A model generated the notes under the pieces. It ran no database searches. It was not told the origin of the DNA and saw only the letters and a program-made list of their open reading frames with translations. From an uncultured Alphaproteobacteria bacterium (GTDB taxonomy: Bacteria; Pseudomonadota; Alphaproteobacteria; Rhodobacterales; Rhodobacteraceae), in the NCBI GenBank assembly GCA_902567635.1, contig CACFNV010000004.1:1483-65482 (forward strand): DNA of 64,000 bases. Direction: 5' to 3'. How positions within the stretch are numbered: position 1 is the stretch's first letter; each line of letters begins with the position of its first letter. Of the stretch, positions 4,414 to 18,049 are shown in pieces. The position numbers were made by a program, and so were the translations under genes.

Positions 4414-4857
4414 ATGGTTGTTAATTTGGTTAAAGAAATCACATCTTCTGAGGCTTTTTTGATGTTAAAAAAAGATTCTGATAGTAGGTTAGTAGATGTT
4501 AGAACAGAAAAAGAGATTTTTTCTGTAGGTTTTCCAGACCTTGGAAGCATTGGTAAGAAAGTAAGTTTTATTGAGTGGGAACAAAGTTTTTTTTCTAACA
4601 GTAGAAAGAGATTCCTAGAAAAATTTAGGGAAAAATTTGGGAGTGATACAACAGGTAACTTCATGTTCATCTGTAAATCTGGAATTAGATCAAATTTTGC
4701 TGCATTAACAGTGGAAGAATCAAATAATTCCAGTAATGATGTAATAAGATTATATAACATTGCTGATGGATTTGAAGGAAATACTGTCTCACAAGAAATA
4801 GACAATAAAAAAAATGGGTGGAAGTTTCTTGGATTGCCCTGGAAAAAACCCGAATAG
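4414..4857 (+). CDS. Single-domain rhodanese-like sulfurtransferase
   Basis: LVDVRTEKE is the rhodanese N-terminal motif and CKSGIRS is a Cys-X5-Arg-type active-site loop. The gene sits between rpsT and dnaA. Confidence 0.7.
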   Translation: MVVNLVKEITSSEAFLMLKKDSDSRLVDVRTEKEIFSVGFPDLGSIGKKVSFIEWEQSFFSNSRKRFLEKFREKFGSDTTGNFMFICKSGIRSNFAALTVEESNNSSNDVIRLYNIADGFEGNTVSQEIDNKKNGWKFLGLPWKKPE

Positions 4858-4871
4858 GTGAATTTAGAGTT

Positions 4872-6236
4872 ATGGAAAACGATAGATGGCTAAAAGTTAA
4901 AGAGTTTGTAAAGGAAAATGTGGGTGAAAGCGCTCATGCAAACTGGATACAGCCAATAGAATTGAAAGAGATTAAAAACTCTGTAGCGAAATTTTTGGTG
5001 CCCACTCGGTTCATTGGAACATGGGTACACAGAAATTATGGAGACTATATTCTGCAAGGTTTTAAGGCCCAAAACGTAAAAATAGATAGATTAGAATTTG
5101 TTACTTTGAATTTAGAAAATAAAAATAATAGTAAAAATCAAAAAAACATAAAATCTGATACATATAAAGAGAATTTAGAAGAGAAAGACTTAATTCTTCC
5201 CAGTTCTCCTTTGGATGAAAGGTTTACTTTTGATAGGTTCGTTGTCGGAAAGCCCAATGAGCTTGCTCATGCAGCAGCCAAAAGAGTTTCGGATGGAGGT
5301 AAGGTAACCTTTAACCCTCTATTTTTATATGGTGGAGTGGGTCTTGGAAAAACGCATTTGATGCATTCTATAGCTTGGTCAATAAAACAAAAAAATAATA
5401 AGGCGCGTGTCCTATACCTATCAGCGGAACAATTTATGTACAGATTTGTTCAAGCTCTTAGGTTTAAAGATATGCATGCATTTAAAAAATTATTTAGATC
5501 AGTAGATGTTTTGATGGTAGATGACGTTCAATTTATCGCTGGAAAAGATTCTACACAAGATGAGTTCTTCCATACTTTTAATGCTTTGTGCGAACAGGGA
5601 AAACAAATTGTTATTTCGGCAGATAGAGCGCCAGGTGAGATTGATGGCTTGGAGGAAAGGATTAAATCGAGGTTGGCATGGGGATTGGTAGTTGACGTTC
5701 ACCCCACTGACTATGAATTGAGATTAGGAATTTTACAAGCTAAGGCTGAGATTCAGATGGAGCTTAATAAAGATGTTAAAATAGGTGAGGGAATACTAGA
5801 GTATTTAGCCCATAGAATTTCCTCTAATGTTCGTGTTTTAGAAGGAGCATTAACAAGGTTATTTGCATTTGCTTCTCTAGTAGGAAAAGAGATAAGTATT
5901 GACTTAGTTCAAGAGTGTCTCTCTGACATATTGAGAACTTCAGAGCGAAAAGTGACAATTGAAGAAATAATAAGAAAAGTTTCTGATCATTATAATTTAA
6001 GAATGTCTGATTTAGTTTCTGCAAGGAGAGCTAGATCTGTAGCTAGACCCAGGCAAATAGCTATGTTTCTTTCAAAGAACCTTACATCAAAGTCTTTGCC
6101 AGAAATTGGAAGAAGGTTTGGAGGAAGGGACCATACCACAGTTATTCACGCTATCAGAAAAATAGAAGAATTGAAAATGACTGATGTTCAAATAGCTGAC
6201 GAAGTAGAGATTCTCCGTAGAACCCTTGAAGCTTGA
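4872..6236 (+). CDS. dnaA: Chromosomal replication initiator DnaA
   Basis: Walker A GGVGLGKTHL is present, as is the domain IV signature IGRRFGGRDHTTVIHAIRKI. I prefer the ATG at 4872 (MENDRWLKVKEF...) because the GTG at 4818 would overlap the upstream gene. Confidence 0.95.
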   Translation: MENDRWLKVKEFVKENVGESAHANWIQPIELKEIKNSVAKFLVPTRFIGTWVHRNYGDYILQGFKAQNVKIDRLEFVTLNLENKNNSKNQKNIKSDTYKENLEEKDLILPSSPLDERFTFDRFVVGKPNELAHAAAKRVSDGGKVTFNPLFLYGGVGLGKTHLMHSIAWSIKQKNNKARVLYLSAEQFMYRFVQALRFKDMHAFKKLFRSVDVLMVDDVQFIAGKDSTQDEFFHTFNALCEQGKQIVISADRAPGEIDGLEERIKSRLAWGLVVDVHPTDYELRLGILQAKAEIQMELNKDVKIGEGILEYLAHRISSNVRVLEGALTRLFAFASLVGKEISIDLVQECLSDILRTSERKVTIEEIIRKVSDHYNLRMSDLVSARRARSVARPRQIAMFLSKNLTSKSLPEIGRRFGGRDHTTVIHAIRKIEELKMTDVQIADEVEILRRTLEA

Positions 6237-6328
6237 TTATACTTATTTTAGTTGTTTTAAACTCTTAAATAATTAAAATGGGTAAATAAGGTGTCTGACA
6301 TTACAAATAATCATTTAGCGAAAGACAA

Positions 6329-7447
6329 ATGAAAATAAGTGTTGAGAGAAACGATTTGTTTAAAGCTATGGGAAGAGCTCAATCCATAGTCGAGAGAAGA
6401 ACCACAATACCTATACTGTCTAATGTGCTTATTGAGGCCAAAGAAAATTTCATCAGTTTAAGAGCTACAGATCTTGACATTGAGCTTACCGACAAAGTCA
6501 CGGCTATTGTTGAAAAACCGGGTTCAGTTACAGTAGGAGCTCACACCTTTTATGAGATTCTTAGAAAGTTGCCTGATGGATCCAGAGTTTTAATTGATTT
6601 AGACCCTCTAAATGAAAAAATAAACATAGCGGCGGGTCGCTCAAGGTTTTCGTTAACTACAATTGCTGTTGATGATTTTCCTATTATGGCCTCATCTGAA
6701 TATGATTTTACATTCTCAATAAACGCCAATTCACTAAAAAGACTTTTTGATAAAGTGAAGTTTGCTATGTCAATGGAGGAAACAAGGTTTTACCTTAACG
6801 GCGTTTATCTTCACGAATTTGTAGAAAATGAAAAGAGTTATATAAGAACTGTAGCTACAGATGGGCACAGATTAGCTAAGATAGATTCTGATTTGCCAGA
6901 TGGAGCAAGCGGTATTCCAGGAGTTATAGTGCCTAGGAAAACAGTTTCTGAATTAAGAATGATTTATGAAACAAGTGAAGATATCGTGACTGTATCTATT
7001 TCAGAAACTAAAATAAGGTTTTCTACACCTAAGTTAATTTTAACATCTAAAGTGGTAGATGGTACTTTTCCTGATTACGATAGAGTAATTCCCAAAAATA
7101 ACAGTAAGAAGTTAATTATAGATGCCTCTGAATTTTCTCAATCAGTTGACAGAGTTGCTACAGTATCTTCTGAAAGAGCAAGAGCTGTAAAACTTTCTCT
7201 CAGTTCAGATAAATTGATATTGTCAGTTAACGCACCTGAGACTGGGTTAGCAACTGAGGAGATACCAATTTCTTACTCAGGTGAAGAAATAGAGATTGGG
7301 TTTAATGCAAAATATCTTCAAGAGATTGCCGGGCAAGTGGAAAAAGGAGAAGCAGTTTTTCTTTTTAATGAAGTAGGAGATCCTGCTTTAATGAAGGACA
7401 GTAGCGATGAAACTGCAGTTTTTGTTGTTATGCCTATGCGTGTCTAA
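6329..7447 (+). CDS. dnaN: DNA polymerase III beta sliding clamp
   Basis: The 372-aa protein has a typical N-terminus (MKISVERNDL...ILSNVLIEA) and the motifs ATDGHRLA and FPDYDRVIP. It occupies the position between dnaA and recF. Confidence 0.95.
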   Translation: MKISVERNDLFKAMGRAQSIVERRTTIPILSNVLIEAKENFISLRATDLDIELTDKVTAIVEKPGSVTVGAHTFYEILRKLPDGSRVLIDLDPLNEKINIAAGRSRFSLTTIAVDDFPIMASSEYDFTFSINANSLKRLFDKVKFAMSMEETRFYLNGVYLHEFVENEKSYIRTVATDGHRLAKIDSDLPDGASGIPGVIVPRKTVSELRMIYETSEDIVTVSISETKIRFSTPKLILTSKVVDGTFPDYDRVIPKNNSKKLIIDASEFSQSVDRVATVSSERARAVKLSLSSDKLILSVNAPETGLATEEIPISYSGEEIEIGFNAKYLQEIAGQVEKGEAVFLFNEVGDPALMKDSSDETAVFVVMPMRV

Positions 7448-7463
7448 CCAAAAATAGCAAGAA

Positions 7464-8543
7464 ATGAAATCTGTTGGCATAGAGAAACTAAAGTTAGTCA
7501 ACTTTAGGTCTTACAAGAGTGCTGAAGTGGAATTTTCAAACTTATCAGCAATAATATTTGGGAAAAATGGGGTAGGCAAAACTAATTTGCTAGAAGCAAT
7601 ATCACTTTTATATTCGGGTAAGGGATTAAGAAGAGCAAATTTTGCTGAAATGACAAAAATCCCTGAAAATGATATCTGGAAAATAGAGGCACTCTGTAAG
7701 CAGGATAATAACTTTTTTGAGATAGAGACTTTTAGTAATGGTCAAGGAAGAGAAGTATATTTAGATGGAAAAAAAACATCTCAACAATCTCTAGGTAATT
7801 ATTTGAAAATGGTTTGGTTTCTTCCTCCTATGGATAGGATTTGGTTGGAAGGATCAAAAGATAGACGCAAATTTCTAGATAGGATGGTTTTTAGTATTGA
7901 TACAAATCACGCAAAAGACTGTAGGCAATATGAGAAGCTATTAAGAGAGAGAAACAGATTGCTAAAAGATAAAATTACAGATGAATCATGGTATATCGCT
8001 ATAGAACAGCAAATGGCAAATATAGGTTACAATATTGATATTTCTAGAAGACGGTTTATAGAAACGCTCAACAGAAATTTGAAAGAAGAAAGCATCTATT
8101 TCCCAGCTATTAAGTTATTTCTTCCAAGTGAACCTTGGGAAAGTGAAGACAAATTGATGAATGAATATAGTGAAAATAGAAGAAAAGATTTGTTAGCTGG
8201 TAGAACAAATGTTGGCCCCCATTCCACAGATATTAAAGGGTTTTACATAGAAAAGGATATTGAAACAAAATATTGCTCAACAGGAGAACAGAAACTCTCG
8301 ATTATTTCAATACTTTTAGCAAATGCCAGATTAATAAAAGAAAAAATAGGTATAAATCCAATTCTAATTTTGGACGAAATCACTGCACATTTAGATGAAA
8401 AAAAAAGAGAATATCTTTTTGAAGAGATTTTGGCTCTAGAGAGTCAATTTTTTATTTCCGGGACAGAGTTGGAGATATTCCGCTCTATTTCTAAAAAAGC
8501 TAAAGTACTTGAATTGATCTTGGATGGAGAAATAAGAATCTAA
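7464..8543 (+). CDS. recF: DNA replication and repair protein RecF
   Basis: The ABC/SMC-like Walker A GKNGVGKTNLLEAI, the signature STGEQK and the Walker B ILILDEITAHLD are present. The gene follows dnaN. Confidence 0.9.
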   Translation: MKSVGIEKLKLVNFRSYKSAEVEFSNLSAIIFGKNGVGKTNLLEAISLLYSGKGLRRANFAEMTKIPENDIWKIEALCKQDNNFFEIETFSNGQGREVYLDGKKTSQQSLGNYLKMVWFLPPMDRIWLEGSKDRRKFLDRMVFSIDTNHAKDCRQYEKLLRERNRLLKDKITDESWYIAIEQQMANIGYNIDISRRRFIETLNRNLKEESIYFPAIKLFLPSEPWESEDKLMNEYSENRRKDLLAGRTNVGPHSTDIKGFYIEKDIETKYCSTGEQKLSIISILLANARLIKEKIGINPILILDEITAHLDEKKREYLFEEILALESQFFISGTELEIFRSISKKAKVLELILDGEIRI

Positions 8544-9691
8544 TTTTTTTCAAAAAAAGGACAGTCTTTGATAATATCTCTTCCAACCATATTGATATCT
8601 CTTTTTCCGCAAAGAGCCATAGTCATATCTAATTCTTTATTTAATATCTCCAAAGATTTTTTTACTCCATTTTTTCCGTCAGCAGATAATCCATAGACGT
8701 AAGATCTTCCAATAAGAACCCCATCAGCCCCAAGAGCGATTGCTTTTAATATATCTTGACCAGATCTAATACCACCATCAAAAAATATTTCTGTTTTCGA
8801 AATATTTTTCTTTATTTCTGGAAGCATTGAAATTGAACTATTAGCCCCGTCAAGTTGCCTTCCCCCATGATTTGAAACGACGATAGCATCGGCACCATTA
8901 TCTTCTGCAAGCTTGGCGTCCTCTGGGTCCATTATACCTTTTAAAATTAGTTTGCCTCCCCACCAATCCTTTATTCTTTTTATGTCGTCCCAGTTTAGTC
9001 TTGTATCAAATTGATTTTGGACCCAAGTGGTAAGAGAGCTCAAATTATTAATATCTTTAACATGACCCATAATATTCCCGAATGTTCGGTTTTTTGTCAT
9101 AGCCATTTTATAACACCAGCCTGGTTTAGATATAAGATCGGCAATATTTGACATTTTTACTTTAATTGGGATCGACAGACCATTTCTAACGTCTGCGTGT
9201 CTTTGCCCCAAAATTTGTAAATCTAAAGTAAGGACTAAAGCTGAACATCCTGCAGCTTTAGCTCTTTTTACCAGTCTTTTAGCAAAATCATGATCCCTCA
9301 TAACATAGAGTTGAAACCAGAATGGTTTTGCAGTCTTTTTAGCAACCTCTTCAATAGAGCATATTGACATTGTAGATAAAGTAAAAGGAACTCCGTGGCG
9401 TTCCGCTGCTTGTGCTGCTAAAATTTCCCCATCTGCTCTTTGCATGCCAAGCAAACCAACAGGTGCTAACGCTACTGGCATTGAGTAGTTTGAACCAAGA
9501 AGGTTTTTAGAGGTACTTCTATTGGATATATCTACAGCAACTCTCTGTCTGAAGGATATTTTATCAAAGTCTTCTGAGTTTTTCCGAAGCGTGGTCTCTG
9601 ACCATGAGCCTGAAGTCACATAATCATGGAATGCCTTTGGTGTCTTTCTTTTAGCTTTTTTTTTGAAATCATCTATTGTTAAAAATGGCAC
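8540..9691 (-). CDS. FMN-dependent alpha-hydroxy-acid dehydrogenase/oxidase (LldD / glycolate-oxidase family)
   Basis: The family signature SNHGGRQLD and the FQLYV motif are present. The protein is 383 aa and is the last gene of the SBP56 operon. Confidence 0.85.
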   Translation of the reverse strand: MPFLTIDDFKKKAKRKTPKAFHDYVTSGSWSETTLRKNSEDFDKISFRQRVAVDISNRSTSKNLLGSNYSMPVALAPVGLLGMQRADGEILAAQAAERHGVPFTLSTMSICSIEEVAKKTAKPFWFQLYVMRDHDFAKRLVKRAKAAGCSALVLTLDLQILGQRHADVRNGLSIPIKVKMSNIADLISKPGWCYKMAMTKNRTFGNIMGHVKDINNLSSLTTWVQNQFDTRLNWDDIKRIKDWWGGKLILKGIMDPEDAKLAEDNGADAIVVSNHGGRQLDGANSSISMLPEIKKNISKTEIFFDGGIRSGQDILKAIALGADGVLIGRSYVYGLSADGKNGVKKSLEILNKELDMTMALCGKRDINMVGRDIIKDCPFFEKN

Positions 9692-9706
9692 ATTTTTCTC
9701 TCTTAT

Positions 9707-10171
9707 TTATATTTTTAAATCTAAACGCGGTTTCCAAAATGGTCTGAAAAGCTCAATTTTTGGACACCTGTTCATTACTACCCTAAGGCCTGCATCTTCT
9801 GCAATTCTAGCTGCTTCATCGTCGTAAACACCGATTTGACCCCAAAGTACTTTAGCGCCAATTTCTATAGCCTCCTGAGCTACTCTAAAAAGCTCTTCTT
9901 TTCTACGGAAAACCTGAACCATATCGATAGGTTTATTTATTTCTTTTAGAGAATGGTATACTTTTAGACCTCTTATTTCATGTAATTTTCGATCGGGGTT
10001 CACTGGCAACATCTCGTATCCAGTTTCATGCAGAACTCTTAATACACCATAGCTGAACTTTGTTTTATCTGAGCTAGCGCCCACCATTGCTATTGTTTTT
10101 ACAGACTTCAGTATATCAGCCAAGTAGGTTTGTGAATAATCATAAATATGGTCAACGTCTGCATCAGGCAT
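9707..10171 (-). CDS. CoA-binding domain protein (YccU-like)
   Basis: A Rossmann-like IAMVGASSDKTKFSYGV start is followed by MLPVNP. The size (154 aa) fits. Its ATG shares one nt with the ferredoxin stop (TAATG). Confidence 0.7.
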   Translation of the reverse strand: MPDADVDHIYDYSQTYLADILKSVKTIAMVGASSDKTKFSYGVLRVLHETGYEMLPVNPDRKLHEIRGLKVYHSLKEINKPIDMVQVFRRKEELFRVAQEAIEIGAKVLWGQIGVYDDEAARIAEDAGLRVVMNRCPKIELFRPFWKPRLDLKI

Positions 10172-10536
10172 TAGTTTTCTCCTTTAGAAGTGGCAATGTC
10201 TGCTTTAAGTTCATGAGGTTTGAGAGGATCAAGAAAAGGGTTGCGATACAGCTTGTCATGACTTTCCACTCCAATTTTTAGCGATATATCTGTTTTAGGT
10301 CTTGCCACACATAATATAATATATCCCTCATTTAGCTGTCTATTGTTAAGCGCAACTTGACGCCTTTGATCTACTTTACCAGATGTAAGTTTGGCAGCGC
10401 ATGTTATGCATCCACCATATTTACATCCATATGGTAGATCAACTCCTTGCTCACGTAAGCTTTCTAAAAGTGAGCGCTTCGCGTCTACTTCATATAACGA
10501 GTTATCACGATTTTCTATTTTTACCGTATGTGTCAT
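10171..10536 (-). CDS. Plant-type [2Fe-2S] ferredoxin
   Basis: The cysteine spacing is C-X4-C-X2-C...C (CKYGGCITCAAKL...ILCVARP). I chose the ATG at 10536 (MTHTVKIE...), which shares one nt with the SBP56 TGA. Confidence 0.8.
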   Translation of the reverse strand: MTHTVKIENRDNSLYEVDAKRSLLESLREQGVDLPYGCKYGGCITCAAKLTSGKVDQRRQVALNNRQLNEGYIILCVARPKTDISLKIGVESHDKLYRNPFLDPLKPHELKADIATSKGEN

Positions 10537-11891
10537 CACAACCAAATATCACTTGTACAATCACCACCAGGATAACGGGCTTCATGGCAGCGGCTAGGAC
10601 CGTTCGGTTCATTTCCAAAGTTGACAATGAAATCAGAGTTTATGGACATCCCTCCATTTTCCGGGTCACAGTCTATCATTACCATAACGCCACCATTTTC
10701 TCTAATTTCGGGGTAAAATTGGTTATCCCAAGTAGAGAATAAGGATGTTGTTACATAAAGCCTCTTTCCGTCAAGGCTCAGTTGAAACATTTGAGGTCCA
10801 CCAGCCATCTTTACGCCATTTACCTCTGGCGCTTTTCCCAGGAGACCACCCATCCAAACCTGACCAGTTAATACTGGCTTATGTGGATCTGAAATATCAT
10901 ATTGACGCATGTCTCCATGCAACCAATTATTAAGGTAAAGGTATTTATCATCCATAGAAACAAGAATGGCTGACATCACACCTGGAATAGGTATTGGCCA
11001 ATCAGGGTGAGGTTCATTTTCAACATCTATGATTTTCTCCCAATTCCATTTTCCCTGATCGTCTTTCCACCAATGGATAACGTTCGCACTCAGTGCTGCT
11101 CCACAAAATCCATGGGAGCTATCAGGATTGTGATGAAATTTTACCTCTAGTGGTACAAGCCCATCCTCGCCTAAATAAAACGTTTCAATTGGCTCGCGTT
11201 TTTCAAAGTCCCAGAAGTGAAGCTGCCGACCATACTTAAGGTGACCTACCTCCTCTAAATCGAATCCTGGCATGAATGTGTTAGGGGCGGCCCACTCAGA
11301 AGAAACCATTATATTGTGGCGTGGCTGGTACCAAAAGTCATAGCTAAAAGGAATGCTGCCCATTGAATTTTCCCACCGTCCGACAATTTCAAAGTCTTTA
11401 TTTAAGTGAAGGTAGCCGCCTGGTGCTTCCCCTTTTGCATCACCAAGCATGGAAACAATGATTTCTGATCCCAAACAATGAACCGTATGAGGGCCACTGA
11501 GATTAGTTTTAGACTTTATATCGGCGCCACTTATAATTTTGTGAAGCTTTGGAGCACTAGGATTGGTTGCGGTATCAACTATATGTATGTTGTTGGAACG
11601 GACCCCAGGAAGAAGAAGATATTTTCTTGCCATATTTGCATCGTCATGGCAGGAAGAACAAGCATTCCAACCCATGTGATGCAATTCATCCCCGATGCCA
11701 GGCATTTCAAGTCTATGAATAACTTTGGAATAATTTGGGCTATTTGGATCAACGTCAACTGTTGCTAAATAATCTGGTTTTTGTATTCCCGTTCCAGTGT
11801 AGATGGCGATTGTGTAAAGTAAATTTTCTCTAGGGGCCTTTATTGCCTCTGTGGGAGAAGCATATCCGGGGCCGCAACAACTTTTGTCCAT
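10536..11891 (-). CDS. Selenium-binding protein 56 family protein / putative methanethiol oxidase; no signal peptide
   Basis: SBP56 hallmarks span the full length: N-terminal CCGPGYASPTEA, HHMGWNACSSC, YDFWYQPRHN, GGPQMFQLSLDGKRLY and RYPGGDCTSDIWL. From memory, it is very similar throughout to human SELENBP1. Confidence 0.9.
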   Translation of the reverse strand: MDKSCCGPGYASPTEAIKAPRENLLYTIAIYTGTGIQKPDYLATVDVDPNSPNYSKVIHRLEMPGIGDELHHMGWNACSSCHDDANMARKYLLLPGVRSNNIHIVDTATNPSAPKLHKIISGADIKSKTNLSGPHTVHCLGSEIIVSMLGDAKGEAPGGYLHLNKDFEIVGRWENSMGSIPFSYDFWYQPRHNIMVSSEWAAPNTFMPGFDLEEVGHLKYGRQLHFWDFEKREPIETFYLGEDGLVPLEVKFHHNPDSSHGFCGAALSANVIHWWKDDQGKWNWEKIIDVENEPHPDWPIPIPGVMSAILVSMDDKYLYLNNWLHGDMRQYDISDPHKPVLTGQVWMGGLLGKAPEVNGVKMAGGPQMFQLSLDGKRLYVTTSLFSTWDNQFYPEIRENGGVMVMIDCDPENGGMSINSDFIVNFGNEPNGPSRCHEARYPGGDCTSDIWL

Positions 11892-11895
11892 TCAA

Positions 11896-12294
11896 TTACT
11901 CTATTATTTCAACTTCATTACCAGATTTTTTCCAAGCAGCGAATCCACCTTCAAGATGGGAAACAGGTTTCAAACCCATATCTTGTGCGGCTTTTGCAGC
12001 TAGGGCAGAACGACCAGCAGCAGCACAATAAAAAACGTAATGCTTATCTTGATTAAACGCGTCTTTGTGATAAGGGCTTTCAGGGTCAATCCAGAACTCT
12101 AACATTCCTCTCGGGCAAGATAGAGAATTTGGAATTTTGCCTTCTCTCTTAATTTCCCTAGGGTCTCTTATATCTACAAAAACAAATTGTTCGTCATTGT
12201 AATAATTAGAGGCATCTGCAATTGGCGTCGTTTTAACCTCTGAATTTGCATCAGCTACCATATCTTTCACATGTTTAATTATATTTTGAGCCAT
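11896..12294 (-). CDS. Single-domain rhodanese sulfurtransferase
   Basis: FVDIRDPREI and the active-site loop YCAAAGRS are present, followed by GGFAAWK. Its stop lies 4 nt upstream of the SBP56 start. Confidence 0.8.
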   Translation of the reverse strand: MAQNIIKHVKDMVADANSEVKTTPIADASNYYNDEQFVFVDIRDPREIKREGKIPNSLSCPRGMLEFWIDPESPYHKDAFNQDKHYVFYCAAAGRSALAAKAAQDMGLKPVSHLEGGFAAWKKSGNEVEIIE

Positions 12295-12360
12295 AGTTGT
12301 CCTTTTCTTAAAATCCTAAATGAATATTGCATGATCAGTAACTGCAAGCAACAAAATGAT

Positions 12361-13068
12361 TTATGATAGTAACCAGCCTCCATCAACATCAACCGTAGTT
12401 CCATTAACAAAATCGTTTTCTATTAGAAATATTATTGCTGTAGCAACCTCTTCTGGGGTACCTGCTCTTTTTATGGAATGATTTTCTGTGAAGTTCCTGA
12501 TAAATTTTTCTCTTTCTTCGCCTTCTTGAGGGAACATAGGTGTGTCAATAATACCAGGTGAAACAAGATTAATTCTTTTGGGAGACATCTCTAATGCTGC
12601 CGCTCTAACCAGATTTTCAACAGCTCCTCCTACTGCAGATAGGGTTACCATTCCAGGCTTTGTTTTTCTTGCAGGAGCTCCACTTACTAAGACCATTGAT
12701 CCATTTTGATCTAAATTCTTTGTTCCATGACGTATAACATTTGCATACCCCCAAAGTTTATCAAAAGATGACTTGAAACCGTCCATATCCATTTCTAAAA
12801 AATCACCTGCTGCGCGTGTGCCGCCAGTTGCAGCGCTAACTAGAATATCATATGGAGCGTATTTGCTGAAAATGTTATCAAGTTGATCGACCTCCCTAAC
12901 ATCACATTTTTCTAAAGTAATTTTATTGTGGTGCTTTCCTTTTGCTTTTTCAGGTTCTCTACTCAAAGCGATTACTTCTGCTCCTTTTTCTATAAGTAGA
13001 TTGCATGTTGCTAAGCCAATACCGGAAGTCCCTCCAAAAACAAGAGCTTTTTTGTTCGATATATTCAT
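12361..13068 (-). CDS. SDR-fold protein (atypical; the YxxxK dyad is not evident)
   Basis: The N-terminal cofactor motif is ALVFGGTSGIGLA and the C-terminal end is ...VDGGWLLS. Where classical SDRs carry Y-x3-K, this protein reads TLSAVGGAVENL. Confidence 0.75.
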   Translation of the reverse strand: MNISNKKALVFGGTSGIGLATCNLLIEKGAEVIALSREPEKAKGKHHNKITLEKCDVREVDQLDNIFSKYAPYDILVSAATGGTRAAGDFLEMDMDGFKSSFDKLWGYANVIRHGTKNLDQNGSMVLVSGAPARKTKPGMVTLSAVGGAVENLVRAAALEMSPKRINLVSPGIIDTPMFPQEGEEREKFIRNFTENHSIKRAGTPEEVATAIIFLIENDFVNGTTVDVDGGWLLS

Positions 13069-14110: not shown

Positions 14111-15049
14111 ATGATTAGCAAAAAAGCAAAAAAAAGGAAGTCTTTAATATTTCGATTAATGGGACTTTTAATCTTTATAAACCCAGCAAAAATTACATTT
14201 TTTCAACTAAAGTTTTTACGATACGCAATTTTTATTGCCTCATTTAGAAGACCCAAAGTAAAGGATGTCTCGTGGTTTAGAATCTCATCAAACAATATAT
14301 CACTATTCATAATTCGGCCCAAAAATATCTCGGATAAAAAGACTATTATATTTTTTCATGGAGGAGGTTTTTTTGTAGGAAGTTTTGGAATTTATAGACA
14401 ATATGTTGCTCTTTTGGCCAAGTTGACCCAAAGAGAAATATATTTTGTTGAATATCGCCTTGGGCCAGAAAATAAATTCCCTTGTCAGTTAGAGGATGCG
14501 ACGGAAGCATATAAATATGTATTAAAAAAAAAAGGAAGTTCAAAAAATATAATTCTTGCAGGGGACTCAGCCGGTGGAAATCTTGCACTAACTCTATTTT
14601 TGAAAATAAAAAAAGAGAATTTACCAAAGCCTGCTGGCATTTTTGTTGTTTCTCCTTGGGTTGACCCCAACTTAGAGGTAACAGAATATTCGGACAAACT
14701 CTGCAAGAAAGACGCCTTAATTGGTCCTTTTATCAAGAAAGCAAAAAAGAGGAAATTAGAAAGGTTATCTAAGTATTTTGTGAATAATACAGATATAAAG
14801 AAAGATCCTTTTATTTCTCCAATATACGGAAATTTTAAAGAGGTACCACCTCTAATGGTCCAATATTCAGAAGAAGAGGTTTTCTCACCCCAAATAAAGC
14901 TATTTATAAATAAACTTAATAAACATGATGTTTCTGTTTTCGTGAAGTGCTGGAAAAATATGTGGCATGATTTCCAATTAGAAACGGATTTGCCAGAAAC
15001 AAAGGAGTCATTTCTTGAGTTTAAATATTTTTTAGATAATATCTCTTAA
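14111..15049 (+). CDS. Alpha/beta hydrolase, HSL-like (family IV) esterase/lipase
   Basis: The oxyanion motif is HGGGFFVG and the nucleophile elbow is GDSAGGN. The gene starts 4 nt after the DMT gene. Confidence 0.8.
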   Translation: MISKKAKKRKSLIFRLMGLLIFINPAKITFFQLKFLRYAIFIASFRRPKVKDVSWFRISSNNISLFIIRPKNISDKKTIIFFHGGGFFVGSFGIYRQYVALLAKLTQREIYFVEYRLGPENKFPCQLEDATEAYKYVLKKKGSSKNIILAGDSAGGNLALTLFLKIKKENLPKPAGIFVVSPWVDPNLEVTEYSDKLCKKDALIGPFIKKAKKRKLERLSKYFVNNTDIKKDPFISPIYGNFKEVPPLMVQYSEEEVFSPQIKLFINKLNKHDVSVFVKCWKNMWHDFQLETDLPETKESFLEFKYFLDNIS

Positions 15050-15933
15050 CTTTTATCTTCACCTGATTGAGCGGCATAAATAGAGGTATATCCTCCAGAC
15101 CAATCAGGAGGCATTTGGCATGGCCTAGGATCGTGATGGGCCCACTTAACATTTTCGCCTCTTACTATTTTGTAAGTGTTGGACGTAGGCTGTGGATGGG
15201 CAGTGTAAGCCTTGGCGTCTGCAGAAGTAAAGCAATTCAATAGTAAGGGTCTTGGGTTTTTTGACTTCGAAGAGGGCGAAAAATGTAAAGATCTTGCATT
15301 ATGAATTGTGATTGATCCAGCATTACCAGTTAAATATTCTACATTAGACATATCTATATTCTCTGCATCCTCATCACTAAGCATTCCTGTCCAGTGTCCA
15401 GCTTTGTCATATTGATTATACAAGTCATGGTTATGAGATTCTTTTAGTACGGCAAGAGGACCATTATTCATATCGGTATCTTCAAGGTAGCAGCCGATAG
15501 TTATTACATTGTAATTTGTATGAGGGAAGAATTGAATATCCTGATGCCATTTGACAGTATCACTTTCATCATACCATTTGAAATTAAGTTTTGAATGATG
15601 GAAAGTAACATTTGGGCCAACAAGATCACTAGCTACATCAGCCATCAAACCGGTCGAAAAACTCCAATATTCATCGTGATTTTCATCTGGGCTTTTGAGT
15701 CTTCTTAAAATTGGGCTATCTTTTGAATGACCTGGTCCTATATCAAAAACATTATTTGATTCTGAAAATTCTCTGCTTTTTTCGACGAACTGATTAGTGA
15801 CATCCTTAAGCTTATTCAAAGTTTCTTTAGGCACTAAATCCTTCACACCAACAAATCCATATTTAAAATAATATTCTCTTTGCTCGTCACTCAATACTTT
15901 AGATGGATATGATAATATTTCTTCGGGGGTCAT
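15046..15933 (-). CDS. Phytanoyl-CoA dioxygenase (PhyH) family Fe(II)/2-oxoglutarate oxygenase
   Basis: WHQDIQFF supplies the HxD iron ligands, and a distal His lies in ITIHNARSLH. The length is 295 aa. Confidence 0.75.
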   Translation of the reverse strand: MTPEEILSYPSKVLSDEQREYYFKYGFVGVKDLVPKETLNKLKDVTNQFVEKSREFSESNNVFDIGPGHSKDSPILRRLKSPDENHDEYWSFSTGLMADVASDLVGPNVTFHHSKLNFKWYDESDTVKWHQDIQFFPHTNYNVITIGCYLEDTDMNNGPLAVLKESHNHDLYNQYDKAGHWTGMLSDEDAENIDMSNVEYLTGNAGSITIHNARSLHFSPSSKSKNPRPLLLNCFTSADAKAYTAHPQPTSNTYKIVRGENVKWAHHDPRPCQMPPDWSGGYTSIYAAQSGEDKS

Positions 15934-16049
15934 TGTTTCCTCTTTTCCAGTTTTTAGTATTTTAAATTATTTGATCAATTTCTCTTGCAACATCAATCTA
16001 TAATCGCATATTTTTGTGTAAACGAAAAACTAATTTATTGAGTAAATAT

Positions 16050-17240
16050 ATGAATGGTCCATTAGAAGGGGTGAAAATTATAGACTTAACATCTATGATT
16101 TCTGGCCCTAGTGCAACAATGATTTTGGCAGACCAAGGAGCAGAGGTTGTCAAAATAGAAAATACTTTAGTGGGAGATTACACCAGAATAGTTAATACCA
16201 GCAGAGGTGGTTTTTCAGCGGCTTTTATTAATAACAACAGAAATAAAAAATCAATTTGTATCGACTTAAAATCTGAAAAGGGAAAAAATATATTTTTCCA
16301 ATTAATAAAAACTGCAGATGTAGTGATTCAAAATTTCAGACCGGGTGTAATGGATAGATTAGGAATAGGCTATCCAAAGATATTAAAGATAAATCCGAAT
16401 ATTATTTATACATCTATAAGCGGATTTGGATTTGTTGGCCCCTATTCGCAGAAACCTGTATACGATCCTCTTATTCAGGCATTATCAGGCCTTACCACAG
16501 TTCAAGCTGGATCAGATGAAGAGAGACCAAGGCTAGTGAGAACCATTCTTCCGGATAAGCTGACAGGCTTTGCTACAGCTCAGGCAGTTACATCCGCACT
16601 ATTTCACAAGGCCAAAACCGGTAGAGGGCAAGAAATAAAGATCTCCATGCTGGATACAGTTATTTCATTTTTATGGGGTTCAGATATGGGGGGGCATACA
16701 TTTGTTGGAGATGAACTAGATAAAGAAACCGCTCAAAGTTTTATCGATTTAATATATGAAACAAAGAATGGTTTTATATCCGTTGCTGTGCAATCTGATA
16801 AAGAATGGAGAAACTTATGTAAGGCATTTGATAAGAATGAGTGGTTGGAAGACGCTAGATTCTCGTCTGCTTCGTCAAGGCATGAAAATATTGATTCGCG
16901 TTTGGAATTAACTCAAAAGGTTTTAAAAATAAAAACCACTGAAGATTGGTTAAATATACTTAATGAGCATGATGTTCCTTGTGCTCCCGTTTTAACAAGA
17001 AAAGAGGTGATTAGGAATGAGCAAGTCTTGGCTAACGACATTGTTGAGATTATTGACCATCCAATAGCAGGTAAAATTAGGCAATCTAAGATAGCAGCTA
17101 GATTTTCTCTATCTGATAAAAAGAAAAATTTAGCTGCACCCGCTCACGGAGAAAATACTAACGAAATCTTAGGCTGTTTGGGTTACTCAGATTCAGAGAT
17201 CGAAAACCTTATTCAACAAGGAATAATAAAATCGGTCTGA
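16050..17240 (+). CDS. Family III CoA-transferase (CaiB/BaiF family)
   Basis: PLEGVKIIDLTSMISGPSATMILADQGAEVVKIE is the typical N-terminus for this family. I prefer the ATG at 16050. Confidence 0.85.
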   Translation: MNGPLEGVKIIDLTSMISGPSATMILADQGAEVVKIENTLVGDYTRIVNTSRGGFSAAFINNNRNKKSICIDLKSEKGKNIFFQLIKTADVVIQNFRPGVMDRLGIGYPKILKINPNIIYTSISGFGFVGPYSQKPVYDPLIQALSGLTTVQAGSDEERPRLVRTILPDKLTGFATAQAVTSALFHKAKTGRGQEIKISMLDTVISFLWGSDMGGHTFVGDELDKETAQSFIDLIYETKNGFISVAVQSDKEWRNLCKAFDKNEWLEDARFSSASSRHENIDSRLELTQKVLKIKTTEDWLNILNEHDVPCAPVLTRKEVIRNEQVLANDIVEIIDHPIAGKIRQSKIAARFSLSDKKKNLAAPAHGENTNEILGCLGYSDSEIENLIQQGIIKSV

Positions 17241-18021: not shown

Positions 18022-18049
18022 TCAGTAATACAAAATTTTAAATTACTGA
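18022..18049. terminator. Weak AT-rich hairpin between convergent genes (possible bidirectional terminator)
   Basis: The stem is TCAGTAAT/ATTACTGA (8 bp) with a 12-nt loop. Its 3' arm overlaps the stop codon of the gene ending at 18043. There is no GC content and no clear U-tract. Confidence 0.25.

What the first reader, a model, noticed from the sequence alone, without database searches (positions are those of the whole stretch)
8540..12294. Translationally coupled five-gene operon around a cytosolic SBP56/methanethiol-oxidase homologue (rhodanese, SBP56, [2Fe-2S] ferredoxin, CoA-binding protein, FMN hydroxy-acid oxidase)
Seen in sequence: five minus-strand genes are packed almost without spacers. 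The rhodanese (active-site loop CAAAGRS) stops 4 nt before the SBP56 ATG at 11891. The SBP56 TGA and the ferredoxin ATG share one nt (TGATG at 10536). The ferredoxin TAA and the CoA-binding-protein ATG share one nt (TAATG at 10171, with GGAG about 9 nt upstream). A further 15 nt leads to the FMN oxidase ATG at 9691. The SBP56 protein begins MDKSCCGPGYASPTEA with no signal peptide. It carries the family motifs along its whole length and looks very similar to my memory of human SELENBP1. Established knowledge: SBP56 proteins (Hyphomicrobium MtoX, human SELENBP1) oxidise methanethiol to formaldehyde, H2S and H2O2. The characterised bacterial enzyme is periplasmic and clusters with SCO1/SenC-type and MauG-type genes, not with the partners seen here. 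Inference: this may be a cytosolic thiol (methanethiol or a related thiol/selenol) oxidation module. A ferredoxin could carry the electrons, and a rhodanese plus a CoA-binding protein could handle the released sulfane sulfur, perhaps as a CoA persulfide. I know of no described pathway with this gene set. A DMSP-demethylating marine heterotroph makes methanethiol intracellularly, so such a module would have an obvious substrate.
Basis: partly seen in the sequence, partly recalled or inferred. Interest (0 to 1): 0.7.

Follow-up and report, generated by a model that had tools for sequence, protein, structure and literature searches.

The report
Thiol oxidase with dedicated ferredoxin partners
A cytoplasmic copper enzyme that breaks down the sulfur gas methanethiol is encoded here in a fixed three-gene package with a small iron-sulfur electron carrier and a CoA-binding protein; the package is kept intact across many marine bacteria, and the enzyme-carrier pair also occurs in salt-loving archaea, so the enzyme probably does not work alone as current biochemistry assumes.

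Summary
The five minus-strand genes and their junctions are real. One detail is wrong: the FMN enzyme starts at GTG 9691, not ATG. Tight spacing is the norm in this roughly 97%-coding genome, so spacing alone proves little.

Comparative genomics splits the "five-gene operon" into three parts.
- **Conserved core:** SBP56, a [2Fe-2S] ferredoxin and a YccU-like CoA-binding protein. They keep the same order in 78 of 80 genome loci; the other two are cut at a contig end. The loci come from Pelagibacteraceae, Rhodobacterales, SAR116, Rhizobiales and Gammaproteobacteria. A reverse search from the ferredoxin found SBP56 upstream in 76 of 76 metagenome contigs. The SBP56-ferredoxin pair recurs in Chloroflexota, Actinomycetota and 4 of 5 haloarchaeal plasmids.
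- **Recurrent movable accessory:** the rhodanese, present in 20 of 80 loci and upstream only in this lineage.
- **Lineage-specific add-on:** the FMN dehydrogenase, present in 5 of 80 loci.

The SBP56 is a "cluster 1" SELENBP1-type enzyme. Its orthologue RdMTO is already characterised as a methanethiol oxidase, with disputed products (S0 versus H2S plus H2O2). None of the six papers I checked mentions the partner genes.

My best reading is a multi-component cytosolic thiol oxidase in which the ferredoxin donates electrons, as the reductant does for formylglycine-generating enzyme. This is a new variant of a known kind.

The parts
10536..11891 (-). SBP56 / SELENBP1-type ('cluster 1') copper methanethiol (alkylthiol) oxidase, cytosolic. 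It is the catalytic core of the cassette.
   Evidence: - Pfam SBP56 scores 678.7 bits over the full length, and PDB 2ECE scores 418 bits.
- The cluster-1 motifs GWNACS, HTVHC and GGDC(T) of PMC10936201 are present.
- The Cu-linked residues H71/H72, H135/H138, D185 and E249, and Cys445, are invariant.
- It is 87-90% identical to orthologues in 80 genomes.
10171..10536 (-). Dedicated plant-type [2Fe-2S] ferredoxin with a conserved C-terminal extension (VGVESHDxLYxNPF...). It is the most constant partner of SBP56.
   Evidence: - Fer2 scores 56.6 bits. fdx_plant scores 76.7 bits against a cut-off of 81.15.
- The cluster ligands C38, C43, C46 and C76 are invariant.
- It lies directly after SBP56 in 80 of 80 genome loci.
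- SBP56 lies upstream of it in 76 of 76 metagenome contigs found through the ferredoxin.
- It is also paired with SBP56 in Chloroflexota, Actinomycetota, a Gammaproteobacteria MAG, Paracoccus and 4 of 5 haloarchaea.
9707..10171 (-). YccU-like single-domain CoA-binding protein with a near-invariant C-terminal tail (NRCPKIELFRPFWKPR). It is the third member of the core cassette.
   Evidence: - CoA_binding_2 scores 128.9 bits, and PDB 2DUW scores 111 bits.
- It follows the ferredoxin in 78 of 80 genome loci; the other two are contig ends.
- It follows the ferredoxin in 74 of 74 metagenome contigs.
- It is present in the Chloroflexota locus with the gene order swapped.
- Tail conservation is shown.
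11896..12294 (-). Single-domain rhodanese (sulfurtransferase) with active-site loop C90-AAAGR-S. It is a recurrent but positionally variable accessory.
   Evidence: - Rhodanese scores 65.4 bits. It scores 164 bits against R. palustris RPA3614, PDB 2HHG.
- It is upstream of SBP56 only in the window's lineage (5 loci).
- The same subfamily lies downstream of the CoA-binding gene in 15 further loci and in the P. inhibens plasmid.
8540..9691 (-). FMN-dependent alpha-hydroxy-acid dehydrogenase/oxidase (LldD-like), starting at GTG. It is a lineage-specific addition at the 3' end, and its end overlaps the convergent recF by 4 nt.
   Evidence: - FMN_dh scores 446 bits. NCBIfam L-lactate dehydrogenase subfamily scores 423.7 bits against a cut-off of 376.
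- It is adjacent in only 5 of 80 loci, all sister SAGs of the window.
- An FMN_dh also lies nearby, but not adjacent, in L021 and L088.
12361..13068 (-). SDR-family oxidoreductase, co-directional and 66 nt upstream of the rhodanese. It may be the first gene of the transcription unit in this lineage.
   Evidence: - adh_short_C2 scores 117.9 bits.
- It is syntenic in the 5 sister loci, where a GFA (formaldehyde-activating) gene fills the gap between the SDR and the rhodanese.
12295..12360 (-). 66-nt spacer between the SDR and the rhodanese. Sister genomes carry a GFA gene here. It may hold the promoter, but this was not shown.
   Evidence: - Sequence read directly.
- L001-L004 and L013 have GFA (PF04828, 106.7 bits) at this position.
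- The promoter scan was uninformative.

Best explanation
**What it is**
- The window encodes a cytosolic, multi-component thiol-oxidation module.
- Its invariant core is a three-gene cassette: a SELENBP1-type copper methanethiol/alkylthiol oxidase (SBP56), a dedicated [2Fe-2S] ferredoxin, and a YccU-like CoA-binding protein. It is probably translationally coupled.

**Shown**
- The cassette is conserved as a unit across orders and classes of marine bacteria.
- The SBP56-ferredoxin pair extends to other phyla and to haloarchaea.
- Orthologues of the SBP56 oxidise methanethiol in vitro (from the literature).

**Inferred**
- The ferredoxin is the enzyme's physiological redox partner and most likely an electron donor. 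It would supply the two electrons that, with the two from the C-S carbon, reduce O2 fully to water: CH3SH + O2 + 2e- + 2H+ -> HCHO + H2S (or an enzyme persulfide that is then resolved) + H2O.
- The copper enzyme FGE works this way, converting Cys-CH2-SH to an aldehyde plus H2S only with an auxiliary reductant.
- Without the partner, the isolated enzyme would short-circuit to H2O2 or to sulfane sulfur. That would explain the conflicting in-vitro reports.
- The CoA-binding protein is an obligate accessory of unknown chemistry in the marine clade. It may act as a thiol or persulfide carrier, or as a docking subunit.
- The rhodanese is an optional sulfane-sulfur handler. In other genomes it is joined by a persulfide dioxygenase.
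- The FMN dehydrogenase is a lineage-specific neighbour with no conserved link to the module.
For: **Cassette conservation**
- Ferredoxin is present in 80 of 80 loci and the CoA-binding gene in 78 of 80, in the same order and strand, although the flanking genes differ: ECH, IclR, CitE-like, ALDH, DmdA-like or rhodanese.
- Identities to the window are 87-90% for SBP56, 72-82% for the ferredoxin and 68-84% for the CoA-binding protein, across genomes with GC of 30-69%.
- The reverse search from the ferredoxin gave SBP56 upstream in 76 of 76 contigs and the CoA-binding gene downstream in 74 of 74.

**Wider distribution of the pair**
- Chloroflexota: SBP56, CoA-binding, Fer2, MBL, rhodanese.
- Marmoricola and a gamma MAG: SBP56, Fer2.
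- Paracoccus plasmid.
- Haloferax, Halocatena, Natronorubrum and Natronococcus: SBP56 then 2Fe-2S with gaps of -4 to +5 nt.
- In Natronorubrum a TrxR-like Pyr_redox_2 protein follows and could be a ferredoxin reductase.

**Signs of a dedicated partner**
- Partner ferredoxins share a private C-terminal motif, ESHDxLYxNPF in bacteria and NPW in haloarchaea.
- The subfamily is small: 17 clusters at 50% identity reach E<=1e-30.
- The ferredoxin tail and the CoA-binding tail are the most conserved parts of those proteins.

**Enzyme identity**
- Cluster-1 motifs and all Cu-linked residues are present.
- RdMTO and RlMTO activity is reported in PMC10936201 and PMC13603461.

**Co-expression**
- The adjacent HTCC2255 genes 2517702558, 2517702559 and 2517702560 (CoA-binding, ferredoxin, Se-binding) shift together in situ (PMC10203303).

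**Direction of electron flow**
- The ferredoxin is plant-type and so presumably low-potential.
- My rough estimate for the CH3SH / HCHO + H2S couple is E0' of about +0.03 V, so reducing such a ferredoxin would be uphill.
- FGE precedent: two electrons come from the substrate and two from an auxiliary reductant. Turnover is slow and uses substrate thiol when the reductant is missing (PMC5324649).

**Sulfane-sulfur handling**
- Rhodanese is present in 20 of 80 loci. A PDO-like MBL protein (324 bits to 4YSK, recalled as P. putida PDO) occurs in the extended clusters.
Against: - Recombinant RdMTO and SELENBP1 turn over methanethiol without any ferredoxin. The partner is therefore not strictly required in vitro.
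- The marine cassette encodes no ferredoxin reductase.
- A simple donor model predicts H2S as the product. Yet rhodanese and persulfide dioxygenase neighbours suggest sulfane sulfur is a true in-vivo product.
- Some close SBP56 homologues (P0070, P0098) and the whole thermophile/archaeal 2ECE clade lack an adjacent ferredoxin. Eukaryotic SELENBP1 has no known ferredoxin partner.
- No SBP56-ferredoxin fusion was found.
- Co-transcription in this organism is inferred, not shown.
- The 80 loci are not phylogenetically independent, and the cassette also travels on a conjugative plasmid. Part of the conservation therefore reflects transfer as a unit.
- The role of the CoA-binding protein is essentially unknown.
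Confidence: 0.55

Rival explanations
1. Maturation or maintenance model. The ferredoxin and CoA-binding protein are not part of each turnover. They load or keep the active site competent, for example by reducing Cu(II) to Cu(I), re-reducing the active-site or N-terminal cysteines, or delivering copper. This would parallel SCO1/SenC and MauG for periplasmic MtoX, or YfaE for ribonucleotide reductase.
For: - The isolated enzyme is active once loaded with Cu, but recombinant protein from E. coli is almost Cu-free (Cu:protein about 0.01; PMC13603461).
- The ferredoxin gives a weak YfaE-like hit (41 bits).
- SBP56 carries a metal-binding-looking N-terminal tail: CC in bacteria and His-rich in haloarchaea.
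- MtoX clusters carry maturation genes (PMC5739008).
- In FGE, loss of reductant leads to disulfide formation and Cu loss.
Against: - Maturation factors are rarely kept in strict 1:1 gene coupling with 70-80% identity across bacterial classes.
- The ferredoxin's private C-terminal motif suggests a stable, specific docking partner.
- No known Cu chaperone fold is present.
Confidence: 0.2
2. Different physiological substrate. The cassette oxidises another thiol or selenol, such as methaneselenol, 3-mercaptopropionate, ethanethiol or a CoA-linked thiol/persulfide. The CoA-binding protein would present or receive a CoA-bound species. Methanethiol would be only the best-studied in-vitro substrate.
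For: - SELENBP1 and RdMTO accept several alkyl thiols.
- The cassette is often flanked by CoA-thioester enzymes: an ECHDC3-like enoyl-CoA hydratase in 35 of 80 loci, a PRK08162 acyl-CoA synthetase, and a CitE-like lyase.
- The flanking GcvT-family gene is DmdA-like but scores below the DmdA cut-off (368.5 against 410).
- The window has no dmdA-like gene.
Against: [quoted passage not shown]
- GFA and S-(hydroxymethyl)glutathione dehydrogenase neighbours point to formaldehyde, hence a methyl thiol.
- The DmdA-like neighbour's best structural match is P. ubique DmdA, as I recall the identity of 3TFH (268 bits).
Confidence: 0.15
3. Ferredoxin as electron acceptor. SBP56 would act in vivo as an O2-independent methanethiol dehydrogenase that passes two electrons to the ferredoxin and on to the respiratory chain, avoiding H2O2.
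For: - Tight SBP56-ferredoxin coupling.
- Cao et al. detected no H2O2.
- It would conserve energy in oligotrophs.
Against: - A plant-type ferredoxin is presumably low-potential. My estimate for the substrate couple is about +0.03 V, so the transfer would be uphill.
- All characterised SBP56 enzymes need O2.
- In Natronorubrum a TrxR-like reductase follows the ferredoxin, which suggests NAD(P)H-to-ferredoxin flow.
Confidence: 0.07
4. One reading: all five genes, including the FMN hydroxy-acid oxidase, form one dedicated pathway.
For: - The genes are co-directional with spacings of 4, -1, -1 and 15 nt.
- All five are kept in the five sister SAG genomes.
- An FMN_dh also lies near SBP56 in two unrelated loci.
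Against: - FMN_dh is absent from 75 of 80 cassette loci and from every distant locus examined except L088, where it is divergently transcribed rather than co-directional.
- Short spacers are the norm in this genome.
- The window holds a second FMN_dh paralogue elsewhere.
Confidence: 0.03

Closest known systems
RdMTO / RlMTO, the 'cluster 1' methanethiol oxidases of Rhodobacteraceae (Cao et al. 2024, PMC10936201; Schlemminger et al. 2026, PMC13603461)
   Same: - Same SBP56 clade: the GWNACS, HTVHC and GGDC(T) motifs are present.
- All six Cu-linked residues and the C-terminal Cys are conserved.
- No signal peptide.
- The window protein is 87-90% identical to Rhodobacteraceae orthologues in the loci examined.
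   Different: - Those enzymes were studied as single recombinant proteins. Neither paper mentions the ferredoxin, CoA-binding or rhodanese genes.
- Here the enzyme is seen as one part of a conserved three-gene cassette.
Human SELENBP1 (Cu-dependent methanethiol/thiol oxidase)
   Same: - Same Pfam family.
- The residues corresponding to H73/H74, H137/H140, D189, E252 and C466 are conserved.
- Cytosolic.
- RdMTO is about 53% identical to it.
   Different: - Eukaryotic, with no operon context and no known ferredoxin partner.
- Its N-terminal motif is CxxC rather than CC.
- I did not align it directly with the window protein.
Hyphomicrobium / Ruegeria pomeroyi MtoX (periplasmic SBP56 methanethiol oxidase with SCO1/SenC and MauG-type neighbours)
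   Same: - Same superfamily and same nominal reaction.
- Copper-dependent.
   Different: - The NCBIfam MtoX model scores 157 bits against a cut-off of 650, with about 41% identity.
- MtoX has a signal peptide and proposed TTQ tryptophans.
- Its accessory genes differ. The MtoX-type locus of Phaeobacter piscinae has no ferredoxin or CoA-binding gene.
Formylglycine-generating enzyme (FGE), a Cu(I) thiol-to-aldehyde oxidase
   Same: - Works-like analogy only: R-CH2-SH + O2 -> R-CHO + H2S on a copper/cysteine site.
- It needs two extra electrons from an auxiliary reductant and turns over slowly or aberrantly without one (PMC5324649).
   Different: - Unrelated fold.
- Its substrate is a protein cysteine.
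- Its physiological reductant is unknown.
- No homology to SBP56 is claimed.
Heterotrophic sulfide/persulfide oxidation modules (SQR, persulfide dioxygenase, rhodanese; cst-type operons)
   Same: The rhodanese, and in extended clusters a PDO-like protein (324 bits to 4YSK, recalled as P. putida PDO), sit next to the cassette.
   Different: - No SQR is present.
- The window itself has no PDO.
- The sulfur source is a C-S bond cleavage rather than sulfide.
YccU / PH1109 / TT1466 single-domain CoA-binding proteins (PF13380)
   Same: - Full-length PF13380 match.
- 111 bits to PDB 2DUW.
   Different: - The family has no assigned function.
- This subfamily has a private, near-invariant C-terminal tail and a fixed genomic partner.

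Membership tests
SBP56 / SELENBP1-type ('cluster 1') methanethiol oxidase | Full-length match to Pfam PF05694 | tested here: met
   678.7 bits, covering residues 5-451 of the protein and positions 2-453 of the 453-position profile. PDB 2ECE scores 418 bits.
SBP56 / SELENBP1-type ('cluster 1') methanethiol oxidase | Cu-linked residues: the HH pair, HxxH, Asp and Glu shown essential in SELENBP1 (PMC10362175) | tested here: met
   H71/H72, H135/H138, D185 and E249 are present and invariant in 81 aligned sequences and in 10 distant homologues.
SBP56 / SELENBP1-type ('cluster 1') methanethiol oxidase | [quoted passage not shown] | tested here: met
   GWNACSS (C78), HTVHC (C139) and GGDCTS (C445) are present.
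SBP56 / SELENBP1-type ('cluster 1') methanethiol oxidase | Methanethiol oxidation activity with copper dependence | not testable with these tools
   Shown only for the orthologues RdMTO and RlMTO in the literature.
MtoX (periplasmic Hyphomicrobium-type methanethiol oxidase) | Score at or above the NCBIfam NF052453 equivalog cut-off | tested here: not met
   157.2 bits against a cut-off of 650.
MtoX (periplasmic Hyphomicrobium-type methanethiol oxidase) | N-terminal signal peptide and SCO1/SenC plus MauG-type neighbours | tested here: not met
   - The N-terminus MDKSCCGPGYASP has no hydrophobic leader.
- The neighbours are ferredoxin, CoA-binding protein and rhodanese.
Plant-type [2Fe-2S] ferredoxin | Fer2 domain with four cluster cysteines (C-x4-C-x2-C-x29-C) | tested here: met
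   - Fer2 scores 56.6 bits.
- C38, C43, C46 and C76 are invariant in alignment A1.
- Best PDB hits are plant and cyanobacterial ferredoxins.
Plant-type [2Fe-2S] ferredoxin | TIGR02008 fdx_plant cut-off | tested here: not met
   76.7 bits against 81.15. It is a divergent subfamily with a C-terminal extension of about 30 residues.
YccU-like CoA-binding protein (PF13380) | Full-length CoA_binding_2 domain | tested here: met
   128.9 bits, covering positions 1-114 of the 116-position profile. PDB 2DUW scores 111 bits. CoA binding itself was not tested.
Rhodanese sulfurtransferase | Rhodanese domain with a catalytic Cys in a six-residue loop ending in Arg | tested here: met
   - PF00581 scores 65.4 bits.
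- The loop is C90-A-A-A-G-R.
- PDB 2HHG scores 164 bits.
- Activity was not tested.
FMN-dependent alpha-hydroxy-acid dehydrogenase/oxidase | FMN_dh domain and the NCBIfam L-lactate dehydrogenase subfamily cut-off | tested here: met
   - PF01070 scores 446 bits.
- NF008398 scores 423.7 bits against 376.
- The stricter LldD model is not met (367.8 against 550).
Conserved operon / functional gene cluster (the five genes as one unit) | Co-occurrence of all five genes in the same order in related genomes | tested here: not met
   Only 5 of 80 loci, all from the window's own lineage, have all five genes. The core trio is present in 78 of 80.
Conserved operon / functional gene cluster (core trio of SBP56, ferredoxin and CoA-binding protein) | Same order and strand across distant taxa with differing flanks, plus reciprocal specificity | tested here: met
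   - Searches cover the forward test.
- The reverse test gave 76 of 76 and 74 of 74.
- Co-transcription in this organism was not tested. In-situ co-variation in HTCC2255 comes from PMC10203303.

The most novel reading that the evidence does not exclude
In their native prokaryotic setting, SELENBP1-type SBP56 enzymes would be ferredoxin-dependent thiol monooxygenase-like systems with FGE-type Cu chemistry, not stand-alone oxidases. A dedicated [2Fe-2S] ferredoxin would be shared from marine Alphaproteobacteria to haloarchaea, and the marine clade would add a CoA-binding subunit. The disputed products of methanethiol oxidase (H2O2 plus H2S versus sulfane sulfur) would then be artefacts of assaying the enzyme without its partners. 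The fate of methanethiol sulfur in SAR11 and roseobacters would have to be re-derived from the three-protein system. This would also give the first functional handle on a YccU-family CoA-binding protein.
Probability: 0.3. Interest if true: 0.8.

Novelty: new variant of a known kind. Interest (0 to 1): 0.6.

Why it matters
- **Place in the sulfur cycle.** Methanethiol is the main sulfur product of DMSP demethylation by the most abundant marine heterotrophs. Its oxidation decides whether that sulfur is assimilated, oxidised or released.
- **An open dispute.** The only two biochemical studies of this enzyme clade disagree on the products. Both used the enzyme alone.
- **A testable explanation.** The ferredoxin gene accompanied the enzyme gene in all 80 genome loci examined and, together with the CoA-binding gene, in the metagenome contigs found through the ferredoxin. 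The pair recurs across phyla and domains. This points to missing components and gives a concrete reconstitution experiment.
- **Cultured hosts exist.** The cassette is present in cultured organisms, including the Phaeobacter inhibens P30 plasmid pP30_b, Ruegeria faecimaris, Marivita cryptomonadis and Cribrihabitans marinus.
- **Peroxide avoidance.** SAR11-type cells are, as I recall, peroxide-sensitive, and a ferredoxin-coupled reaction would spare them a cytosolic H2O2 source.
- **Orphan family.** The result gives the orphan YccU family a first genomic functional association.

Tried and rejected
- **Rfam scan of the whole window.** No match at gathering thresholds, so no riboswitch or leader was found.
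- **Promoter and terminator scan.** Counts equal those in shuffled sequence, so it is uninformative.
- **Rosetta-stone fusions.**
  - The 604-aa homologue P0002 is only a mis-called N-terminal extension.
  - None of the top 150 ferredoxin representatives is an SBP56 fusion.
- **Canonical DMSP-demethylation neighbours.**
  - The acyl-CoA synthetase is not DmdB (281 bits against 822).
  - The enoyl-CoA hydratase is ECHDC3/PRK08139-like, and DmdD is not among its top PDB hits.
  - The GcvT-like protein is DmdA-like but below the cut-off.
  - The window has no dmdA-like gene.
- **N-terminal Cys-Cys motif as a marker of ferredoxin linkage.** It held for 6 of 7 first cases but failed when extended. 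Rubrobacter and P0058 have CC without an adjacent ferredoxin, and haloarchaea have a His-rich tail instead. I downgraded it to a side note.
- **Universality of the ferredoxin link.** Rejected. The 2ECE-type thermophile/archaeal clade and two close bacterial homologues lack it.
- **ORF 4414-4857 as a second rhodanese.** No Pfam hit.
- **Literature.** I searched for the gene association and for leads on the CoA-binding protein and on induction, and term-searched six SBP56/MTO papers. I found only an uncommented co-listing in an expression table.
- **Organism identity.** Exact-sequence look-up places the proteins on an unnamed 66-kb NCBI contig and in many Tara and ENA contigs, but gives no taxon name.

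Full report
**1. Observation**

Five co-directional ORFs lie on the minus strand at the stated coordinates.
- Rhodanese, 11896-12294.
- SBP56, 10536-11891.
- [2Fe-2S] ferredoxin, 10171-10536.
- CoA_binding_2 protein, 9707-10171.
- FMN_dh, 8540-9691.

Pfam supports each call: 65, 679, 57, 129 and 446 bits respectively.

- A 4-nt spacer precedes the SBP56 ATG at 11891.
- TGATG shares its A at 10536.
- TAATG shares its A at 10171, with AAGGAG upstream.
- A 15-nt spacer precedes the FMN_dh start.

I have two corrections.
- The FMN_dh start at 9691 is GTG. The nearby ATG at 9693 is out of frame.
- Tight spacing is not remarkable in this genome. The window is about 97% coding, 22 of 38 same-strand neighbour gaps are 15 nt or less, and the median gap is 11 nt.

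Promoter and terminator scans equal shuffled expectation. Rfam finds nothing. The operon sits beside dnaA, dnaN and recF, and its 3' end overlaps the convergent recF by 4 nt. An SDR gene lies 66 nt upstream on the same strand.

**2. What the SBP56 is**

The protein matches PF05694 end to end. It fails the NCBIfam MtoX equivalog (157 bits against 650). It has no leader peptide. It is therefore not the periplasmic Hyphomicrobium-type enzyme.

It carries the three "cluster 1" cysteine motifs defined for Rhodobacteraceae methanethiol oxidases: GWNACS, HTVHC and GGDC(T) (PMC10936201). It also carries all six residues shown to be essential or Cu-linked in human SELENBP1. Here these are H71/H72, H135/H138, D185 and E249, plus the C-terminal Cys445 (PMC10362175 and PMC13603461).

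Two groups have purified cluster-1 orthologues: RdMTO from Roseobacter denitrificans in both studies, and RlMTO from Ruegeria lacuscaerulensis in one. They oxidise methanethiol.
- One group reports sulfane sulfur and no H2O2.
- The other reports strictly Cu-dependent formation of H2S, H2O2 and HCHO.

A cytosolic SBP56 methanethiol oxidase is therefore already known. The family is very abundant in marine data, with single 90%-identity clusters holding thousands of member sequences.

**3. What is conserved around it**

A scan of one genome per species found at least 596 species with a relative. I analysed the 80 best loci, where SBP56 is 87-90% identical to the window.

By record title the 80 loci divide as follows.

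| Group | Loci |
|---|---|
| Pelagibacteraceae/Pelagibacterales | 21 |
| Rhodobacterales | 30 |
| SAR116 | 5 |
| Rhizobiales/Hyphomicrobiales | 7 |
| Geminicoccaceae | 1 |
| Gammaproteobacteria | 4 |
| Unclassified | 12 |

GC content ranges from 30% to 69%.

The core:
- The ferredoxin follows SBP56 in 80 of 80 loci.
- The CoA-binding gene follows the ferredoxin in 78 of 80 loci. The two exceptions are contig ends.
- The ferredoxin is 72-82% identical to the window's and the CoA-binding protein 68-84%.

The flanks differ between lineages.
- An enoyl-CoA hydratase lies directly upstream in SAR11.
- A divergent IclR regulator occurs in 29 loci.
- CitE-like lyase, aldehyde dehydrogenase or DmdA-like genes occur in others.

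The remaining window genes are much less constant.
- Rhodanese of the same subfamily (43-65% identical) occurs in 20 loci. It is upstream of SBP56 only in the five sister SAGs of the window. In the other 15 it lies downstream of the CoA-binding gene.
- FMN_dh is adjacent only in those five sister genomes.

I ran the reverse test by searching metagenome contigs with a ferredoxin alignment. SBP56 was directly upstream in 76 of 76 contigs with room for it, and the CoA-binding gene was downstream in 74 of 74.

The unit under selection is therefore the trio. The rhodanese is a recurrent movable accessory. The FMN enzyme is a local addition.

**4. How far the partnership reaches**

| Organism or homologue | Gene arrangement |
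|---|---|
| Chloroflexota MAG | IclR divergent, then SBP56, CoA_binding_2, Fer2, MBL, rhodanese |
| Marmoricola | SBP56, Fer2 |
| Gammaproteobacterial MAG | SBP56, Fer2 |
| Paracoccus seriniphilus plasmid | SBP56, 2Fe-2S, DUF2182, with S-(hydroxymethyl)glutathione dehydrogenase nearby |
| Phaeobacter inhibens P30 conjugative plasmid pP30_b | IclR divergent, then SBP56, 2Fe-2S, CoA-binding, rhodanese, MBL, enoyl-CoA hydratase, acyl-CoA synthetase, GcvT-like |
| Haloferax, Halocatena, Natronorubrum, Natronococcus (about 50% identical SBP56) | SBP56 then a 2Fe-2S ferredoxin, with gaps of -4 to +5 nt |
| Haloterrigena | No ferredoxin |
| P0070, P0098 (close bacterial homologues) | No adjacent ferredoxin |
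| P0058 | No adjacent ferredoxin; FMN_dh divergent upstream; CoA_binding_2 3 kb downstream |
| Saccharolobus, Thaumarchaeota, Thermaerobacter, Thermomicrobia (2ECE-type clade) | No ferredoxin; a membrane protein lies downstream |
| Phaeobacter piscinae (MtoX-type) | No ferredoxin |

In Natronorubrum the ferredoxin is followed by a TrxR-like Pyr_redox_2 protein.

- The MBL protein is PDO-like. It scores 324 bits to 4YSK, which I recall as the P. putida persulfide dioxygenase.
- The GcvT-like protein's best structural match is 3TFH, which I recall as P. ubique DmdA (268 bits). It falls just below the NCBIfam DmdA cut-off (368.5 against 410).

The partner ferredoxins share a private C-terminal signature: VGVESHDxLYxNPF in bacteria and NPW(K/R) in haloarchaea (alignment A1). 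Within the marine cassette, the C-terminal extension of the ferredoxin and the C-terminal tail of the CoA-binding protein (NRCPKIELFRPFWKPR) are the most conserved parts of those proteins. In a library of 1.8 billion representatives, only 17 clusters at 50% identity match the ferredoxin at E<=1e-30, and none is a fusion with SBP56.

**5. Expression and literature**

In a Monterey Bay metatranscriptome study, three consecutive HTCC2255 genes shift together between two NAC11-7 species, with ratios of 0.42, 0.34 and 0.47. They are annotated as CoA-binding domain protein, ferredoxin and selenium-binding protein, and the authors filed them under unrelated categories (PMC10203303).

Searches for the association, and term searches within the key SBP56 and methanethiol-oxidase papers, found no mention of a ferredoxin, CoA-binding protein, rhodanese or operon context. 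I cannot exclude a description in subscription-only literature.

**6. Mechanism**

*Shown:* the trio is a conserved unit, and orthologues of the catalytic subunit oxidise methanethiol.

*Inferred:* the ferredoxin is the redox partner of the copper site. I favour a donor role for four reasons.
- The ferredoxin is plant-type and so presumably low-potential.
- My rough estimate from standard formation energies puts the CH3SH / HCHO + H2S couple near +0.03 V. Reducing such a ferredoxin would be uphill.
- One haloarchaeal locus adds a possible NAD(P)H-ferredoxin reductase.
- The copper enzyme FGE carries out the same thiol-to-aldehyde chemistry. [quoted passage not shown] When the reductant is missing, it turns over slowly at the expense of substrate thiol (PMC5324649).

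A ferredoxin-fed reaction would be CH3SH + O2 + 2e- + 2H+ -> HCHO + H2S + H2O. It would release no H2O2 in the cytosol. It would also account for both in-vitro product patterns as uncoupled side routes.

Several observations count against this.
- The isolated enzyme is active without any ferredoxin.
- The marine cassette has no reductase gene.
- The rhodanese and persulfide dioxygenase neighbours imply that sulfane sulfur is a real in-vivo product. The ferredoxin might instead resolve an enzyme persulfide, or simply keep the copper and cysteines reduced, which is the maturation/maintenance rival.

The CoA-binding protein's role is open. The CoA-persulfide idea is mildly disfavoured because the associated dioxygenase is most like 4YSK, recalled as a glutathione-persulfide type. 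GFA in the sister genomes and a glutathione-formaldehyde dehydrogenase next to the Paracoccus locus fit formaldehyde as a product.

**7. Verdict**

- It is right about a cytosolic thiol-oxidation module with ferredoxin, CoA-binding and rhodanese partners.
- It is wrong that the five genes form one conserved pathway.
- It did not take into account that the enzyme clade is already characterised.

What appears new is the conserved SBP56, ferredoxin and CoA-binding cassette, together with the cross-domain SBP56-ferredoxin pairing. I classify it as a new variant of a known kind. It has a direct experimental test that could settle a current dispute about methanethiol oxidase chemistry.

Noticed in passing
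window 12295-12360; L001:5108-5578 and the same position in L002-L004 and L013: The five sister SAG genomes carry a glutathione-dependent formaldehyde-activating enzyme gene (GFA, PF04828, 106.7 bits) between the SDR and the rhodanese. The window has only a 66-nt spacer there, so the gene was lost or never gained. GFA fits formaldehyde as a product of the module.
   Followed up: partly
L084:5370-5927, L085:5763-6647, L086:5397-6020, L087:5468-6148: In the thermophile/archaeal (2ECE-type) SBP56 clade, the gene directly downstream encodes a multi-pass membrane protein with no Pfam hit instead of a ferredoxin. Three of the four are homologous to one another (E values 1e-9 to 1e-32). It may be a metal transporter or a different partner.
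   Followed up: partly
L054:8167-8592 and 10 other Pelagibacteraceae loci: Eleven SAR11 loci carry a second, divergent CoA_binding_2 paralogue (115.8 bits to Pfam, 89 bits to the first copy) directly after the cassette's CoA-binding gene.
   Followed up: no
L091 (Phaeobacter inhibens P30 plasmid pP30_b, 58660-65856 of NZ_CP010619.1): The cassette lies on a conjugative plasmid within an eight-gene array: SBP56, 2Fe-2S, CoA-binding, rhodanese, PDO-like MBL, enoyl-CoA hydratase, acyl-CoA synthetase and DmdA-like GcvT, with a divergent IclR regulator. SBP56 is 87-90% identical between bacterial classes, which points to horizontal spread of the cassette.
   Followed up: partly
N-termini of SBP56 homologues (window 11877-11891; L094-L098; P0070, P0098): The tail before the conserved GPGY differs by clade. 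It is Cys-Cys in most bacterial cluster-1 proteins and His-rich (for example HHEHEHHEHHVH) in haloarchaea. It is absent in P0070, P0098 and the thermophile clade. It looks like a metal-acquisition tail and does not track ferredoxin presence strictly.
   Followed up: partly
L097:4329-5381 (Natronorubrum aibiense plasmid): A 350-aa Pyr_redox_2 (thioredoxin-reductase-like) flavoprotein follows the SBP56-ferredoxin pair. It is a candidate ferredoxin reductase for the system.
   Followed up: no
window 18043-19158 (-), 16014-17240 (+), 15046-15933 (-), 22872-23780 (-): The window holds a second FMN_dh paralogue (346 bits), a family III CoA-transferase, a PhyH-type dioxygenase and a homocysteine S-methyltransferase within about 12 kb of the operon. 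No dmdA-like gene is present anywhere in the 64 kb.
   Followed up: no
window 4818-8543: dnaA, dnaN and recF lie immediately next to the operon, so it sits in the replication-origin region. The recF and FMN_dh coding ends overlap convergently by 4 nt (8540-8543).
   Followed up: no
L031:5007-5786 and 34 other loci: A PRK08139/ECHDC3-like enoyl-CoA hydratase accompanies the cassette in 35 of 80 loci and lies directly upstream in SAR11. It is not DmdD-like by PDB ranking, and its substrate is unknown. It could be the methanethiol-releasing step of a variant MMPA pathway.
   Followed up: partly
window 11896-12294: The exact rhodanese sequence occurs on 35 contigs from Tara, JGI, ENA and Logan assemblies. 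The window's SBP56 belongs to a 90%-identity cluster of 1072 members. The lineage is therefore widespread in ocean metagenomes, although the source contig (66,003 bp, NCBI) carries no name.
   Followed up: no
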